Source: an uncultured Nitrososphaerales archaeon
GTDB taxonomy: Archaea; Thermoproteota; Nitrososphaeria; Nitrososphaerales; Nitrososphaeraceae
Length of the DNA stretch: 64,000 nucleotides
NCBI GenBank assembly: GCA_963709405.1
Contig: CAVPXM010000030.1
Location: forward strand, 32,001-96,000
Reading direction: 5' to 3'
The position numbers were made by a program, and so were the translations under genes. Below, piece after piece: positions 11,368-34,330 of the stretch. The notes beneath the pieces were generated by a model that saw only the letters and a program-made list of their open reading frames with translations, was not told the origin of the DNA and made no database searches. How positions within the stretch are numbered: position 1 is the stretch's first letter; each line of letters starts with the position of its first letter.

Positions 11368-11400
11368 ATCCAAGGCGGGTTTCCCGTGTTCCGCCTAGTC
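11368..11400. repeat. Free-standing GC-rich hairpin AGGCGGG-TTTCCCGTGT-TCCGCCT(AGTC), related to CRISPR spacers 2 and 3
   Basis: Reverse complement GACTAGGCGGAACACGGGAAACCCGCCTTGGAT aligns with spacer 3 GACTAGGCGGTGCACGCCAATCCCCGCCTAGAT. Confidence 0.65.
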
Positions 11401-29484: not shown

Positions 29485-30384
29485 CTACATTAGGTAGTTA
29501 GAAATTAATAGTTCTGTATGCCCCATACGCCTTAATGCATTCGAATTAATAGCTCTTAAAGTATTAACTTTTTTTATATTTTCAAAGTCATAATATAATT
29601 CTTTGACCAATGAGGTGTAGGAATTGCTAAGAAGGACCATACATTTTCTATCGTCGAGTTTCTTAAACAATCGTGCAAGCTCATATTGATCTTCATCCGT
29701 AAAACCGTTATCCGTATATCTCGTAAAGTTAGCAGTTCTGCTCATGGGGTCATATGGCGGATCTAGATAAATAAAGTCGCCCTCTCTTGCATTTTCGAGC
29801 AGTATTCGTTTATAATCGCCCAGTTCTATATGAATCTGTGATCCTTGAAGAACTTTACTAATGTTTCGAAGGTTCCCTTGATCGCATATACATGGATTTT
29901 TGTATCTACCCATAGGAACATTGAATTTACCCTGTCTGTTTACTCGATAGAGACCGTTGTAACATGTTTTGTTAAGTGTGATAAATCTTGCAGCCCTTTC
30001 GATGACATTCCTCTTGAGTGGAATAGCATCATCACGTAGAGAATAATAAAACTTAGCAGGAGATTTCTTATAGTCCTCTTCGTAGATGATTAAAATCTCA
30101 ATTAACCTCTCAACATTTGACTTCACGACGATATACGCATTAATTAGTTCTTCATTTAAATCTGATAGGAATGCGTCAAAATGAATATTATTTTTATTGA
30201 TCGTATGCAAGAATACGGCGCCGCCACCCAGAAAAGGTTCGAAGTATCTTCTGAAGTATGTTGGAATGAAGGTATCTATTCTAGATAGTAGTTGCGACTT
30301 TCCTCCAGCCCATTTTACGAATGGATACATTTTGTTGAAGTTTATAGGTAAAGCCTCAATTGATTGATCCATATTTTGGCCCAC
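29485..30384 (-). CDS. Dam/D12-class DNA adenine methyltransferase
   Basis: PFVKWAGGK, EPFLGGGAVF, LNKTCYNGLYRVN..GKFNVPMG and YLDPPY. Confidence 0.93.
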   Translation of the reverse strand: MGQNMDQSIEALPINFNKMYPFVKWAGGKSQLLSRIDTFIPTYFRRYFEPFLGGGAVFLHTINKNNIHFDAFLSDLNEELINAYIVVKSNVERLIEILIIYEEDYKKSPAKFYYSLRDDAIPLKRNVIERAARFITLNKTCYNGLYRVNRQGKFNVPMGRYKNPCICDQGNLRNISKVLQGSQIHIELGDYKRILLENAREGDFIYLDPPYDPMSRTANFTRYTDNGFTDEDQYELARLFKKLDDRKCMVLLSNSYTSLVKELYYDFENIKKVNTLRAINSNALRRMGHTELLISNYLM

Positions 30385-30817: not shown

Positions 30818-31171
30818 TCACTTTGATAATAATCTTCTAGCCGTATCTATTAATTTTGAATGATCTGCCTGGACTTCGGTAGTGATATATAGAATGTGAT
30901 CGTCGCCCAAGGGCATAGTAATTCGCTTAATCTTTTCATATTCTGCCAAAACATATCTTCCTTTTCCAATCTTTGGTGCGAGTGCGCTTCGTGTTTTCCA
31001 AGAATTTACGGCTAATTCAAGTGATTTTTTACTCTCTTCTGGTGTAAGTAGATTCTTGACACCTTCACGATGGCTAGAATACATTATATTTCCATTTTGG
31101 TCACATACTGTTACTAGTCTTATATGAGGATCGCTCTTCATGAGTTCTTCATAAATATGTTTATAATCCAT
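30818..31171 (-). CDS. Small roadblock/profilin-like hypothetical protein of a Nitrososphaerota-expanded family
   Basis: DPHIRLVTVCDQNG...REGVKNLL...KIGKGRYVLAEYEKIKRITMP. Confidence 0.7.
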   Translation of the reverse strand: MDYKHIYEELMKSDPHIRLVTVCDQNGNIMYSSHREGVKNLLTPEESKKSLELAVNSWKTRSALAPKIGKGRYVLAEYEKIKRITMPLGDDHILYITTEVQADHSKLIDTARRLLSK

Positions 31172-31184
31172 TACTCACTAATAA

Positions 31185-31661
31185 CTAACCGTCATATAAT
31201 AATATATTGCGACTTACTGGCTCATCATTGCTGGAACTAAGCAATGTTATATCTGGAATCGTCATTAATAATTTAGCGATCTCATCTTCTTTAGCAAGCA
31301 GCAGTATCTTCTTAGATACTGTACTAACTTCATCATTCAACGATCTAATAACACGAAGGCAGCCATTAATTCTATAATCATCATGTCCTTCCAGTTTATC
31401 CATATCTCTTTTGGTAAATGTACTGGTACGATCGACATCGGAGGCATCTATACCCTTCATAAGCGTAATGCTATGTACCTTATTCTTTAGTTTAGTTCTC
31501 ATTCTTACAAGTGCGGCTCTATGCCTAACAATGTCTCGTAGTTCCATTATTCTCTTGTTTGGAACATAGCATTAAGCTATGTATCCTCCTCTCAGTAGAT
31601 CAGCTAGTTTAACCGCATCAAGTTTGTCAGTCTTTATTTTAGCTGAGGCAATACTCTTGTC
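31185..31661 (-). mobile_element. IS110-family transposase remnant
   Basis: KIKTDKLDAVKLADLLRGG, ELRDIVRHRAALVRMRTKLKNKVH and LLMTIP; internal stop, truncated at both ends. Confidence 0.85.
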
Positions 31662-31664
31662 TTA

Positions 31665-31679
31665 GAACCTATCCGAAAA
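31665..31679 (+). mobile_element. Solo IS5-type terminal inverted repeat (GAACCTATCCGAAAA) preceded by TTA
   Basis: 14/15 identical to the IS end at 31973-31987 and similar to the ends of the IS at 25095-25988. Confidence 0.7.
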
Positions 31680-31688
31680 GTAGTGGAG

Positions 31689-31972
31689 GTTGTAATTTGA
31701 CTGATATAGGATTGAAACACTCTTCATCTCAGATTGTAGGTGTGTATGTTATTGCGTTGTAATTTGAGTAATATAGGATTGAAACAACGACTAGGCGGTG
31801 TTCAAGCGTTCCCGCCTAGATGGTTGTAATTTGAGTAATATAGGATTGAAACAACGACTAGGCGGTGCACGCCAATCCCCGCCTAGATGGTTGTAATTTG
31901 AGTAATATAGGATTGAAACTTAATACATGCATACTAGGTATAGGTATGGATAAACAGTTGTAATTTGACTAA
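31689..31972 (+). CRISPR. Orphan CRISPR mini-array: 4 full 30-bp repeats, 1 truncated repeat and 4 spacers of 37 nt
   Basis: Repeat GTTGTAATTTGAGTAATATAGGATTGAAAC at 31689 (variant), 31756, 31823 and 31890, partial at 31957-31972; typical ATTGAAAC 3' end; no cas genes in the window. Confidence 0.95.
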
Positions 31973-32610
31973 GAACGTATCCGAAAATTCCAACTCTTCT
32001 GTAAGTGATCCAAGCACAAGCAAAATGTAACATCGCAATATGGTTCTCTACCTTTATCTCCCATCTAATTAACAAGCGTCTAAACCGGTTCATCCAAGAA
32101 TCAGTCCTTTCAACGACCCATCGTCTAGCTCTATATCTAGGTAATTTTGCTCTTTTTATGTTGCTTCTTTCTTCTGCTCTTAATCGGATGTGAATTGTAT
32201 AACCTTACTCTTCTTCAAGTAATTCGTATACTTCAGGAGAGTTATAACCCTTGTCAAGGCACATGTGCTGCTTTGATCTGATTGTTGGTTCAGGTCTATA
32301 GATTACTACTATACTCTGAAGTGGTGCTTTACTCAGTTTCATATCATGTCTGTTAGCACCATCTACGGATACACCAATAGGAACTCCTTTACCATCTACC
32401 AAGATACTACGGTTTGTACCTGATTTACTTCTGTCTGTGTGAGGGATTTGGTCCTGTACTTTTTTCCCTCAAGAGGTGTTTTTGTAATAACACCGCCATC
32501 CATAGCCTGCCATTTCCAATCTATTCTATTATTTTAATCATATACCGACAATCCATCGATCCACATGCGTTTGAATACACCTTCTTTCCTCCACTCTTGG
32601 AATCTATCTT
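31973..32610 (-). mobile_element. IS5-family remnant inserted in the fifth CRISPR repeat; its other end is missing
   Basis: TIR GAACGTATCCGAAAA after TAA; broken frames RFQEWRKEGVF, WKWQAMDG, VDGKGVPIG..ANRHD, MCLDKGY and RRWVVERTDSWMNRFRRL. Confidence 0.88.
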
Positions 32611-32723
32611 CATATCGACTAATATGTTTCTATCTATGAATATCATCAATTTGTAGATTCGACAGACAGATATGTTTATGAGTTCATCCCAAGTCCTGAA
32701 TGCTTTACTATCCATAGAATCAG

Positions 32724-33053
32724 CTAGTCATGAGTAAGTTTGAGGAATTTTAATAACTCTGATTTATGTATCTCGGGATCTTCGTACTTCATGTGATGCT
32801 CTATCGATTCCAGATGGACGTTCTTTACGTCTGGATGTAATCTACAGTAAAAGTATCCCTGCTCTATGGCAATTACAGGATAACATGGGCTTTGGTCTAA
32901 ATTATGTTCCTGGGATGCAGTATATGATATATTTGGATCATCATAAAAGAAACCGTTTATTGAGCTGAGACTAGTAGTATCTTCTATACGTATAGCTGAA
33001 TCCGTTAATAACGGGGAACATGAGCAGATGCGCTCCTTCAGCATCCCCGTCAT
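32724..33053 (-). CDS. Hypothetical protein or fragment with a CxxH...HH metal-binding motif
   Basis: YFYCRLHPDVKNVHLESIEHHMKYEDPEIHK; a degenerate second copy lies at about 34150-34280. Confidence 0.5.
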   Translation of the reverse strand: MTGMLKERICSCSPLLTDSAIRIEDTTSLSSINGFFYDDPNISYTASQEHNLDQSPCYPVIAIEQGYFYCRLHPDVKNVHLESIEHHMKYEDPEIHKSELLKFLKLTHD

Positions 33054-33512
33054 CTTTCCAGTTTTGTATCGCTAGCGATTTGAGAGCACGTGCCCATGAT
33101 CGAGAATATACACATGTAGTTATATCATCAATCTCAATGTACATCGAACCTTCAGTCTATACTTACAATGTCTCATTTTAGAGAATGTTTATACTCTGGC
33201 ATGCTGCATATCGTTATTAGAACAGTTTTTTCCGATATAACTAAGCCAGATTTTACAAGAATCCAATACTGTCTGACATGCTGAAAATTACTACATCTAG
33301 AATGATCAGGGAATTGTATCATGTTTTTGTCGGCGTTACTAATCATCCTGGCTGCCATTATCTATAGAACTCATCGTAAATATTTTCAATATCGATCGCT
33401 TGAATTCTTCGATTTGCGACAAGTAACTACTTTACAATATAAACCGTTATTCTGATTAATCATAGATAGTTTTTACTGAGGTTAATTAACAGCATTTAGA
33501 CATTAAGTAATA

Positions 33513-33698
33513 ATGATTGAAAACATCCTGTATGTAGTTATCGGATTTGTTGTTACCTATCTGTCACTGGAATTAGCGTGGCACTTTACAGCCTGCAGAA
33601 TCAAGGACAAGAAACTAAGACCTTGCATGTTCAAAGAAATTAAAACAGTCTTGATGGTATCTCAAACTAGTCGTCGTCATAGGAAGGATGGTGTATAG
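33513..33698 (+). CDS. Small membrane protein
   Basis: N-terminal TM helix; 6 nt upstream of the next ORF. Confidence 0.5.
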   Translation: MIENILYVVIGFVVTYLSLELAWHFTACRIKDKKLRPCMFKEIKTVLMVSQTSRRHRKDGV

Positions 33699-33704
33699 TA
33701 ATAA

Positions 33705-34100
33705 ATGATGATAACTACAGAATTGCAAGAAATAAGAAATGTCTTCAGAGGACTAGAAACACTATATCAAACATACCTTCCAAAAGTCGATCCTACGCTG
33801 ATTCGTGAACTTCTAGTACGCGAACAAGATAAGACTGAACGTGCACCTTTTTACATGGTTGAAGTATTTACCAAGAAGGGTACTGATTCGCAATGGTGCA
33901 AGGCTCATATATTGAATACTACTGGGTTTGTTCCTGCAATATACGATAATGGTACTCACTATGTAACTAATATGAGATTAACATACGACATTCTCAAAAG
34001 ATTAAATGACTTTGACTTTGTGAATGAAGTTTCAGGTGATTATACTGGCACATTAACAGGTAGAGGAGCATCACACGAACGTAGAGGCCACACAGACTAG
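33705..34100 (+). CDS. Hypothetical protein
   Basis: 131-aa ORF with normal composition (PFYMVEVFTKKG...PAIYDNGTHYV). Confidence 0.65.
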   Translation: MMITTELQEIRNVFRGLETLYQTYLPKVDPTLIRELLVREQDKTERAPFYMVEVFTKKGTDSQWCKAHILNTTGFVPAIYDNGTHYVTNMRLTYDILKRLNDFDFVNEVSGDYTGTLTGRGASHERRGHTD

Positions 34101-34330
34101 TAGGAAAACAGCTCTAGAGATCCAAGCCCGTTTTGGCAATATCTAATAATTTCAGTAACTCCAATCTGTGCTTCTGAGGATCTTGGTACTTGATGTGATG
34201 CTCTGTCGTTCTTTATGTCAGGATGTAATCTGCAGTAAAAGTAGTTTTATTTTTCGCGATTATTGTATAACACGATAACGAGGCGTGTATGTCGTTAACT
34301 TTGGCCGGATCAGCGTCGGTCACCTCAGAT

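What the first reader, a model, noticed from the sequence alone, without database searches (positions are those of the whole stretch)
31786..31889. Two adjacent CRISPR spacers are one hairpin scaffold with a swapped 10-nt loop
Seen: spacer 2 (31786-31822) is AACGACTAGGCGGTG-TTCAAGCGTT-CCCGCCTAGATG and spacer 3 (31853-31889) is AACGACTAGGCGGTG-CACGCCAATC-CCCGCCTAGATG. The first 15 nt and last 12 nt are identical, and the central 10 nt are unrelated. The constant parts form a perfect 8-bp stem (CTAGGCGG/CCGCCTAG). It can extend into the flanking repeats (ACAAC pairing with GTTGT, with one mismatch and a bulged A), leaving the variable decamer in the loop. Known: CRISPR spacers are normally unrelated to each other, and a plain duplication would be identical or carry scattered substitutions. 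Inference, three options. (a) Both spacers were acquired in the same register from a multi-copy stem-loop family with constant stems and variable loops, such as REP/PATE-like, attC-like or guide-array units of a mobile element. (b) The array was repurposed so that repeat processing releases structured small RNAs that display a variable 10-nt guide. (c) One spacer was duplicated and its loop then replaced.
Basis: partly seen in the sequence, partly recalled or inferred. Interest (0 to 1): 0.88.

Follow-up and report, generated by a model that had tools for sequence, protein, structure and literature searches.

The report
Hairpin spacer family in transposon-borne CRISPR
The two look-alike spacers are copies of one hairpin-shaped spacer that travels with a small CRISPR array inside a jumping gene found at about fifteen places in this archaeal genome, and only its loop differs between copies, for reasons still unknown.

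Summary
The same 30-nt repeat forms 15 small arrays in this genome. Eleven start 9 nt inside an IS5-family transposon end. Six end in a repeat cut at TAA by an inverted, decayed copy of that IS. This is a composite transposon that captured a leaderless CRISPR mini-array.

The arrays share seven spacer modules in a fixed order. The hairpin spacer is module B, with 12 copies at 11 loci. The stem is intact in 11 of 12. Loop diversity is 0.43, against 0.06 for the rest and 2-6% for the linked IS pseudogene.

Each of the window's two copies has a closer relative at another locus than its neighbour, so this is no fresh duplication with a swapped loop. I found no free hairpin family, no protospacer and no loop-flank match. 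The genome holds type I-B interference genes with a related repeat, but no cas1 was found.

Best reading: old paralogues of one spacer in a passenger array. Why only the loop differs is unresolved. First readers had already noted the IS5 link on this genome.

The parts
31662..31664 (+). TTA next to the outer transposon end (target-site type of this IS family)
   Evidence: TTA or TAA (TAG in the one decayed copy) directly precedes the outer end in the 11 arrays that have it. One search shows a 3-bp TTA/TAA duplication at both ends of 6 autonomous IS copies.
31665..31688 (+). Outer IS5-family end (GAACCTATCCGAAAA plus 9 nt), read inward. It takes the place of a CRISPR leader.
   Evidence: The 24 nt equal the transposase-proximal end of the IS subfamily found next to the arrays, with 1-2 mismatches. 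It is present in 11 of 15 arrays.
31689..31718 (+). Repeat 1 (2 mismatches to the window consensus)
31719..31755 (+). Spacer module A (shared with 5 other arrays)
31756..31785 (+). Repeat 2
31786..31822 (+). Spacer module B, copy 1 (hairpin; loop TGTTCAAGCGTTC at 31799-31811)
   Evidence: Its nearest relatives are the B copies on C63c, C50 and C97.
31823..31852 (+). Repeat 3
31853..31889 (+). Spacer module B, copy 2 (hairpin; loop TGCACGCCAATCC at 31866-31878)
   Evidence: Its nearest relative is the B copy on C63d. Contigs of runs X1 and X7 carry it.
31890..31919 (+). Repeat 4
31920..31956 (+). Spacer module E (shared with 4 other arrays)
31957..31972 (+). Repeat 5, cut after 13 nt at its TAA by an IS insertion
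   Evidence: The same junction occurs in 6 arrays.
31973..32608 (-). Inverted IS5-family element of the array-linked subfamily. Its transposase is a pseudogene, and the element is truncated near 32608-32613.
   Evidence: Homologues carry Pfam PF01609 and PF13586.
11368..11400 (-). Lone hairpin GACTAGGCGG-N12-CCGCCTTG. It may be a relic of a module B unit.
   Evidence: The stem match is strong, but the flank alignment is no better than shuffles. No Rfam match and not conserved in 30 relatives.

Best explanation
The two spacers are paralogous copies of one spacer module (B) of a small, leaderless CRISPR array that was captured by an IS5-family insertion sequence. One IS copy landed in a repeat at its TAA. 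An extra IS end lies 9 nt before the first repeat and faces the other way. The two outermost ends are therefore inverted, and the transposase can move array plus IS as one unit of about 1.3 kb. That unit has spread to at least 11-15 sites (shown). The copies then lost different spacers by recombination between repeats, which left subsets of a fixed order A-B-(C/D/G)-(E/F) (inferred from the layouts). The window keeps two B units, each with a closer relative at another locus than its neighbour. The pair is therefore either a remnant of a longer run of B units in the master array or the product of exchange between copies. It is not a fresh duplication (inferred). The loop differences are older than the present burst of copies. 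The arms and repeats look alike through recent common descent, through homogenisation together with the repeats, or because the B units came from variants of one structured protospacer with a constrained stem and a free loop (inferred, unresolved). Today the arrays look like passengers. They have no leader, no cas1 was found in the assembly, and the non-loop array sequence drifts at the pseudogene rate. The host type I-B Cas6 and Cascade might still process them, because 13 of the last 14 repeat bases match the host repeat (inferred).
For: There are 15 loci with this repeat, all in different flanks. Eleven begin with the same IS end plus 9 nt, and 6 end with the same cut repeat followed by TAA and an inverted IS. 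One copy (C55b) has TAA on both outer sides. The autonomous IS is 948 bp, has 7 copies at 96.8-100% identity (C58 and six others), and shows a 3-bp TTA/TAA duplication in 6 of 6 copies read at both ends. Transposase homologues carry PF01609 and PF13586. Only seven spacer modules occur, and always in the same order. Module B occurs 12 times at 11 loci, and every exact hairpin in the genome sits in a spacer slot. Loop diversity is 0.43 against 0.061 for the other columns. The linked IS pseudogene differs by 1.9-6.4% over 15 pairs. The other modules differ by roughly 1-9% once a frame-shifted and a truncated copy are set aside. The window's B copies differ by 7, but B1 is 2-3 from C63c/C50/C97 and B2 is 2 from C63d. 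A decayed repeat-B unit on C63 near 86049 (alignment score 64 against a shuffle maximum of 40) has a loop 4 changes from C21b and C59. The C54 hairpin, read on the other strand, has a loop 10/13 identical to C63d although its stems have diverged. This suggests the loop types are old. Contigs of run X2, from another study, carry the C49-type loop letters, the C55b-type differences and a single-B form equal to the C50 type, so these loops are stable across samples. The repeat belongs to a genuine CRISPR family. The host array with type I-B cas6-cas8b-cas7-cas5-cas3 lies on C46 (23/30 identical repeat, 13 of the last 14), and true arrays with unique spacers occur in relatives G017 and G027 (26/30). 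Cas1 was not found although the control rang in 7 of 14 genomes.
Against: No array with more than two B units was seen, so the run of B units in a master array is a postulate. If the B units were acquired separately, one protospacer would have supplied most spacers of the old array, which is unusual. If they are old tandem duplicates, nothing shown here explains why arms and repeats stayed identical while the loops diverged by about 40%. The polymorphic third base of B (C or T) follows the element lineage rather than the loop type, which fits loop exchange or homogenisation of the arms better than simple paralogy. Two of the three relics have flank alignments at shuffle level, and relics were found by searching for the stem, which biases them. 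The outer 5-bp stem stays pairable in 60 of 60 cells through G-U wobbles only. That is a weak hint of RNA-level constraint and would not be expected of a pure passenger. The assembly is 91% complete, so cas1 and longer arrays may be missing. Only one copy shows the target duplication at both ends.
Confidence: 0.5

Rival explanations
1. The hairpin unit is a working RNA. Host Cas6 cuts the transposon-borne array into units in which a fixed stem displays a 10-13-nt loop as a guide, decoy or kissing-loop partner. The loops have diversified under selection, and the arms are kept by selection.
For: Variation is confined to the unpaired loop with sharp borders. The hairpin is strong (z -4.15 and -2.93), whereas the other spacer units do not fold. 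All three variable sites of the outer stem keep RNA pairing through G-U, with 0 of 60 cells broken. The arms look unchanged in relics with old loops. The repeat's last 14 bases match the host type I-B repeat in 13. An RNA-library run holds contigs over the array, which does not show transcription.
Against: The loops match nothing in their own 6-kb surroundings beyond chance 7-9-mers, and no 13-mer occurs elsewhere in the genome apart from one chance pair. There is no compensatory change in the stems. The rest of the array drifts like the pseudogene. One B copy has a broken stem. The wobble pattern rests on three transition events and is not significant.
Confidence: 0.15
2. The array is a neutral passenger, and the loop is a mutation hot spot. 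The GC-rich stem folds in single-stranded DNA or RNA-DNA intermediates, so the exposed loop bases mutate about ten times faster.
For: The variable stretch coincides exactly with the unpaired loop. Loop distances form a continuum from 0 to 8 rather than two classes. Ten of the 11 loci have a loop of their own. Loop length also varies between 13 and 14 (12 in one doubtful relic).
Against: The relic on C54 keeps a loop 10/13 identical to a living copy although its stems have diverged by about 25%. The C63 relic's loop is no more diverged than its flanks. The same loops occur in a run from another study. Changes are of all types, with no deamination-like bias seen by eye. An 8-bp stem with a 13-nt loop is a poor cruciform (established knowledge).
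Confidence: 0.15
3. The B units were acquired independently after the transposon had spread. Each came from a different member of a hairpin family of a virus or plasmid, in the same register.
For: Each locus has its own loop. B is the first spacer in 6 of the 11 arrays that hold it.
Against: In the other 5 arrays B lies behind the shared module A. The arrays have an IS end instead of a leader. No cas1 was found. No other locus-specific spacers exist. No protospacer was found in the genome, 60 relatives, IMG/VR, one genome per species, JGI metagenomes, phage records or plasmid records.
Confidence: 0.05
4. At the level of the whole array, the transposon carries it to exploit the host system. It may act as a repeat decoy (like RNA anti-CRISPRs) or as a mini-array aimed at rival elements. 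On this reading the hairpin spacer is incidental.
For: The repeat mimics the host repeat (22-23/30, and 13 of the last 14). The host has interference genes. Mobile elements are known to carry mini-arrays and single repeats (passages of PMC11656645; abstract of PMC10651486 in the listing).
Against: No spacer has a target in any collection searched. The arrays decay and lose repeats at the pseudogene rate. All linked IS copies are pseudogenes.
Confidence: 0.1
5. The tandem of two B units is an assembly artefact that strings together two strain alleles of a single slot.
For: The 57 nt between the two loops are identical to other array parts, so short k-mers cannot phase them.
Against: A B-repeat-B junction must exist in some molecule for any k above 31 (reasoning from the sequence). 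Both loop types are independently present in the genome family. B2 is in contigs of two other runs.
Confidence: 0.05

Closest known systems
CRISPR mini-arrays and stand-alone arrays carried by mobile elements (virus mini-arrays; arrays on integrative-conjugative elements of Thaumarchaeota)
   Same: A short array without cas genes, carried by a mobile element, with repeats related to those of a host type I-B system (passages of PMC11656645; passages of PMC6563490).
   Different: The carrier is a 1.3-kb IS5-family composite rather than a virus or conjugative element. There are about 15 copies per genome. The repeat is only 22-23/30 identical to the host repeat. The spacers are shared between copies and have no found targets. 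One spacer is a hairpin with a variable loop.
RNA anti-CRISPRs (solitary repeat units of phages and plasmids)
   Same: Repeat mimics on a mobile element that could bind Cas proteins (abstract of PMC10651486 seen in the listing; passage of PMC11656645).
   Different: Here there are 2-5 repeats with spacers. No test of inhibition is possible with these tools, and the carrier is an insertion sequence.
Degenerate mini-CRISPRs that make regulatory crRNA-like RNAs (CreA, CreR)
   Same: Small repeat-spacer-repeat units outside normal arrays, in type I-B hosts (abstracts in the listing).
   Different: Those sit in cas loci, and their spacer partly matches a nearby promoter. Here the units are dispersed on a transposon, and only chance matches of 14-18 nt were found.
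IS5-family insertion sequences and composite transposons
   Same: A DDE transposase (PF01609/PF13586), 15-16-bp terminal inverted repeats, a 3-bp TTA/TAA target duplication, many copies, and mobilisation of DNA lying between two ends.
   Different: The cargo is a CRISPR array, and one flank is a bare 24-nt end rather than a second full IS.
Guide loops of IS110-family bridge RNAs (recalled, not from a call)
   Same: A transposon-linked structured RNA whose loops carry variable recognition sequences.
   Different: Bridge RNA loops match the target and donor DNA of their own element. Here the loops match neither flanks nor element. The transposase is a DDE IS5 type. The IS110 remnant upstream is merely the insertion site.

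Membership tests
Canonical adaptive CRISPR array | Regularly spaced direct repeats of 23-50 nt | tested here: met
   Four full 30-nt repeats and one cut repeat at a 67-nt period.
Canonical adaptive CRISPR array | Repeat belongs to a family found next to cas genes | tested here: met
   The host array with type I-B genes on C46 has a 23/30 identical repeat. G017 and G027 arrays are 26/30 identical. The Rfam CRISPR-DR9 match is only 16.8 bits against a cut-off of 45.
Canonical adaptive CRISPR array | Spacers unique and of foreign origin | tested here: not met
   The same seven modules recur in 15 arrays, and no protospacer was found anywhere searched.
Canonical adaptive CRISPR array | AT-rich leader next to the first repeat | tested here: not met
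   A 15-nt IS end plus 9 nt abuts repeat 1 in 11 of 15 arrays.
Canonical adaptive CRISPR array | Adaptation genes cas1/cas2 available | tested here: not met
   PF01867 gave 0 hits in the 91%-complete assembly, while the control rang in 7 of 14 genomes. cas2 and cas4 were not searched.
IS5-family composite transposon | DDE transposase of the IS5 type | tested here: met
   The window ORF hits PF01609 weakly. Homologues of 91-97% identity carry PF01609 and PF13586. All array-linked copies are pseudogenes.
IS5-family composite transposon | Inverted terminal repeats at the two outer ends | tested here: met
   GAACCTATCCGAAAA lies on the left and its reverse complement at the far end of full-length copies (C55b, C97). 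The window's own right end is truncated.
IS5-family composite transposon | Target-site duplication flanking the whole unit | tested here: inconclusive
   TAA lies on both sides in 1 copy (C55b). The other copies lack one end.
IS5-family composite transposon | Same unit in different genomic contexts | tested here: met
   Eleven arrays have the outer end in unrelated flanks.
Free-standing hairpin repeat family (REP/PATE/attC-like) | Many copies outside arrays, in intergenic DNA or on an element | tested here: not met
   All 11 exact hits are spacers. A loose search gave 43 hits against 49 in the reversed-genome control, and only 3 were credible.
Transposon guide RNA (bridge-RNA-like) | Variable loop complementary to target or donor flanks | tested here: not met
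   Only 7-9-mers at scattered places within 3 kb on either side of each of 12 units.
Virus-type mini-array | Spacers target related mobile elements | tested here: not met
   No match in phage records, plasmid records (window array only), IMG/VR (repeat, modules A, B and E) or the own genome. Modules C, D, F and G were searched only in the own genome.
RNA anti-CRISPR | Repeat mimic that blocks the host Cas complex | not testable with these tools
   Only the similarity is shown: 22-23/30, and 13 of the last 14.

The most novel reading that the evidence does not exclude
A CRISPR array captured by an insertion sequence has been turned into a dispersed set of structured small RNAs. Host Cas6 releases units in which a fixed 8-13-bp stem presents a 10-13-nt loop. 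The loops diversify under selection as guides or decoys, so that arm plus repeat plus arm acts as a 57-nt repeat and the loop as a 10-nt spacer.
Probability: 0.12. Interest if true: 0.85.

Novelty: new variant of a known kind. Interest (0 to 1): 0.55.

Why it matters
Stand-alone CRISPR arrays are known on viruses, plasmids and conjugative elements. I found none described on a plain insertion sequence in searches or in the passages read. If an IS can pick up part of an array and scatter it through a genome, many orphan mini-arrays in archaeal genomes may be transposon cargo rather than decayed immune loci. Repeats would also become hot targets and recombination sites. The hairpin spacer adds a sharp puzzle. 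A 13-nt stretch is about seven times more diverse than everything around it in copies that otherwise differ by a few per cent. Each explanation on offer is testable with reads from the many soil samples that hold this element. The options are serial capture of one protospacer from escaping variants, a loop-limited mutation process, and a selected guide loop.

Tried and rejected
Loops as guides to their own insertion site: only chance 7-9-mers within 3 kb on each side of the 12 units.

Loops matching elsewhere in the genome: each 13-mer occurs only in B units. The C55b loop is the exception, and its two extra hits lie in a duplicated coding stretch.

Protospacers for any module in the own genome: only 14-18-nt hits with E of 0.09-0.65.

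Arms in public collections. IMG/VR gave 0. One genome per species gave 1 hit inside a transporter gene of a Planctomycetota MAG. JGI metagenomes gave 1 unrelated terminator-like hairpin. Records of this genome or near kin may be left out of those scans.

The window array against phage and plasmid records: no match. The repeat and modules A and E in IMG/VR: 0 each. Modules C, D, F and G were not scanned there.

Rfam: nothing at the lone hairpin. At the array there were only two sub-threshold hits.

Conservation of the lone hairpin region in 30 relatives: none.

Family-wide DNA search: 32 of 151 genomes match, own genome included, but only through IS ends or related CRISPR repeats.

CreA-like partial promoter match, K-turn, C/D-box RNA, coding repeat (the 67-nt period is not a multiple of three, and no ORF spans the array), loop inversion (no loop is the reverse complement of another, except that the C54 relic reads better on the other strand) and a diversity-generating retroelement were all considered. 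They were dropped on inspection, without a formal test for the last.

Sequencing runs. Spacer 2's loop was not covered in any of the 4 runs laid, and in X1 a contig joins the tail of module A to repeat 3. Both can come from the k=31 graph, which cannot resolve the 30-nt repeat, and from bubble removal. They say nothing either way. The RNA-library run X17 holds read-length contigs over module A, a repeat and module E, and over the C49-type flank. This does not show transcription.

More arrays from near kin could therefore not be read.

Supplementary files of papers were not opened. Table S1 of PMC6563490 lists IS elements and may bear on whether IS-borne arrays were seen before.

Full report
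**The observation.** The window holds four full 30-nt repeats at a 67-nt period and a fifth cut after 13 nt. Spacers 2 (31786-31822) and 3 (31853-31889) share their first 15 and last 12 bases and agree at 2 of the 10 middle positions. The pattern CTAGGCGG-N13-CCGCCTAG occurs twice in the window and in none of 100 shuffles. Folded as crRNA-like 67-mers, the two units give -21.5 and -19.8 kcal/mol (z -4.15 and -2.93), with the outer ACAAC/GUUGU pairing into the repeats. The units with spacers 1 and 4 and the repeat alone do not fold better than shuffles.

**The array is one of many.** With the genome laid, the repeat occurs 37 times within 5 mismatches; with 6 allowed these fall into 15 loci on 10 contigs, each with 1-4 repeats. 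Their spacers are not unique. Seven modules recur, always in the order A, B, then C, D or G, then E or F. The window reads A-B-B-E, and C50 and C97 read A-B-E. C63d reads A-B-C, C40 reads B-C-F and C21b reads B-D-F. Module B is the hairpin spacer, with 12 copies at 11 loci. All 11 exact hairpins in the genome lie in spacer slots.

**The carrier is a transposon.** In 11 of the 15 arrays, the first repeat is preceded by TTA or TAA (TAG in one decayed copy), then GAACCTATCCGAAAA, then 9 nt. Those 24 nt are the transposase-proximal end of an IS5-family element, read inward. In 6 arrays the last repeat stops after GTTGTAATTTGAC. It is followed by TAA and an inverted copy of that IS. The two outermost ends are thus inverted relative to each other, as a transposase needs. 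The C55b copy has TAA outside both ends.

The related autonomous IS is 948 bp long. It has 7 copies at 96.8-100% identity (C58 and six others) and a 3-bp TTA/TAA duplication in 6 of 6 copies read at both ends. Homologues of its transposase carry PF01609 and PF13586. All array-linked IS copies are pseudogenes. The window's copy is truncated near 32608-32613. In C59 and C63a an IS of the other subfamily sits at the same TAA in the other orientation, so this repeat site attracts the IS. The window's unit has landed in an IS110-family remnant.

**It is true CRISPR by descent.** Contig C46 carries a cas6 fragment, an array of five repeats, and cas8b, cas7, cas5 and cas3 of type I-B. The host repeat and the transposon-borne repeat agree at 22-23 of 30 positions and at 13 of the last 14. 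Relatives G017 and G027 have ordinary arrays with unique spacers and repeats 26/30 identical. Same-genus G006 has one tiny orphan array with this repeat. Cas1 and RAMP profiles found nothing in this 91%-complete assembly.

**The loop.** In an alignment of the 12 repeat-B-repeat units, variation is confined to the loop. Pairwise diversity is 0.43 over the loop columns against 0.061 elsewhere, and the best 14-column windows all overlap the loop columns. The inner stem is intact in 11 of 12 units. The IS pseudogene linked to the arrays differs by 1.9-6.4% over 15 pairs, while the loops of the same copies differ at up to 8 of 12 positions. The other modules differ by roughly 1-9% once one frame-shifted and one truncated copy are set aside. 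So the array drifts like the pseudogene, and the loop alone stands out.

The loops are nonetheless related to each other. Distances peak at 4-6 of 13, against about 8 for random 13-mers, and run continuously from 0 to 8. The window's B1 is 2-3 changes from C63c, C50 and C97. B2 is 2 changes from C63d, and B1 and B2 differ by 7. This excludes a recent in-place duplication with a replaced loop.

**What the loops are not.** They do not match the 3 kb on either side of their copy or any other place in the genome. No module has a protospacer in the genome. The arms are absent from 60 relatives and from IMG/VR. They were met only as two chance hairpins in one genome per species and in JGI metagenomes. 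Phage and plasmid records and further IMG/VR scans gave nothing.

**Relics.** A decayed repeat-B unit lies on C63 near 86049 (score 64 against a shuffle maximum of 40). Its loop is 4 changes from the C21b and C59 loops. A lone hairpin on C54, read on the other strand, keeps part of the repeat end and a loop 10/13 identical to C63d, although its stems have diverged. The lone hairpin in this window at 11368-11400 shares the stem, but its flanks align no better than shuffles. It has no Rfam match and is not conserved in relatives. These relics suggest that the loop types are older than the present copies. They were found through the stem, however, which biases them.

**Other samples.** Rows of 11 studies hold part of the stretch, and I laid contigs of four runs. 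Run X2, from another study, carries the C49-type loop letters, the C55b-type differences and a single-B form identical to the C50 type. X1 and X7 carry B2. So these loops are stable across samples. These contigs come from a k=31 graph and cannot phase the repeats.

**Reading.** What is shown: the pair belongs to a 12-member spacer family carried by a mobile IS5 composite. Its arms are constant, its loops are far more diverged than anything linked to them, and each of the window's two copies has a nearer relative elsewhere.

What is inferred: the two are old paralogues. They are either remnants of a run of B units in the master array or were brought together by exchange between copies. The arrays are now passengers.

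What remains open is why only the loop differs. Serial capture of one structured protospacer from variants would explain constant arms, but it requires one site to dominate the old array. A loop-limited mutation process fits the sharp borders but not the relics or the stability across samples. A selected guide or decoy loop fits the conserved arms and the wobble-only changes of the outer stem (0 of 60 cells broken), but it has no target and no support from the rest of the array.

**Literature.** I found no IS-borne CRISPR mini-array and no hairpin spacer family in searches (listings and abstracts only). Neither appeared in the passages read from PMC6563490 or PMC11656645. The first describes stand-alone arrays on thaumarchaeal conjugative elements and an IS5 expansion in one soil species. 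The second reviews CRISPR parts on mobile elements. Supplements were not opened.

**Earlier notes.** First readers of other windows of this genome had already noted mini-arrays inside IS5 ends and a hairpin first spacer. I saw those notes after and confirmed them independently.

Noticed in passing
window 30818-31663 (minus strand): Remnant of an IS110-family transposase gene (weak PF01548 hit). It is one of several copies (C54 at 94%, also C5 and C44). The homology stops exactly where the array-carrying transposon begins, and the other half is not within 4 kb.
   Followed up: partly
G000:C58:12584-13531 and 6 further copies (C25 twice, C51, C41, C18, C86): A 948-bp IS5-family element at 96.8-99.2% identity between copies, with a 3-bp TTA/TAA duplication and a transposase read in two frames. 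It is probably active and could move the decayed array-linked copies in trans.
   Followed up: partly
G000:C59:11023-11100 and G000:C63:38255-39270: An IS of the other subfamily sits in the same TAA of the terminal repeat but in the opposite orientation. The repeat is therefore a repeated target of this IS family.
   Followed up: partly
G000:C46:1-950 (L041): The first 950 bases or so of the contig that carries the type I-B genes are GC-rich and read like a bacterial ABC-transporter fragment. They abut a cas6 that lacks its first 86 profile positions. This may be a chimeric contig or contamination.
   Followed up: no
window 31820-31834 and 31887-31901: Each junction of module B with the next repeat reads ATG GTT GTA ATT TGA, a four-codon reading frame. 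No ribosome-binding signal was looked for.
   Followed up: no
L011 1500-1590 (G006:C190): A same-genus genome has one orphan unit with this repeat (1 mismatch), a different 38-nt spacer, and a second repeat that breaks off after about 26 nt.
   Followed up: partly
window 29485-30384 (minus strand): A D12-class N6-adenine DNA methyltransferase gene (PF02086, 206 bits) lies 1.3 kb from the array. No partner restriction gene was looked for.
   Followed up: no
window 32609-34274: The DNA to the right of the truncated IS is a patchwork of many-copy families at 70-93% identity to dozens of loci, including a 61-nt and a 37-nt direct repeat pair 1.4 kb apart (32746-32855 and 34148-34243).
   Followed up: no
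G000:C63:192394-192430: One repeat of the C63c array carries a 7-nt palindromic insertion (it reads ...ACTAATATCCGATATCGGATTGAAAC).
   Followed up: no
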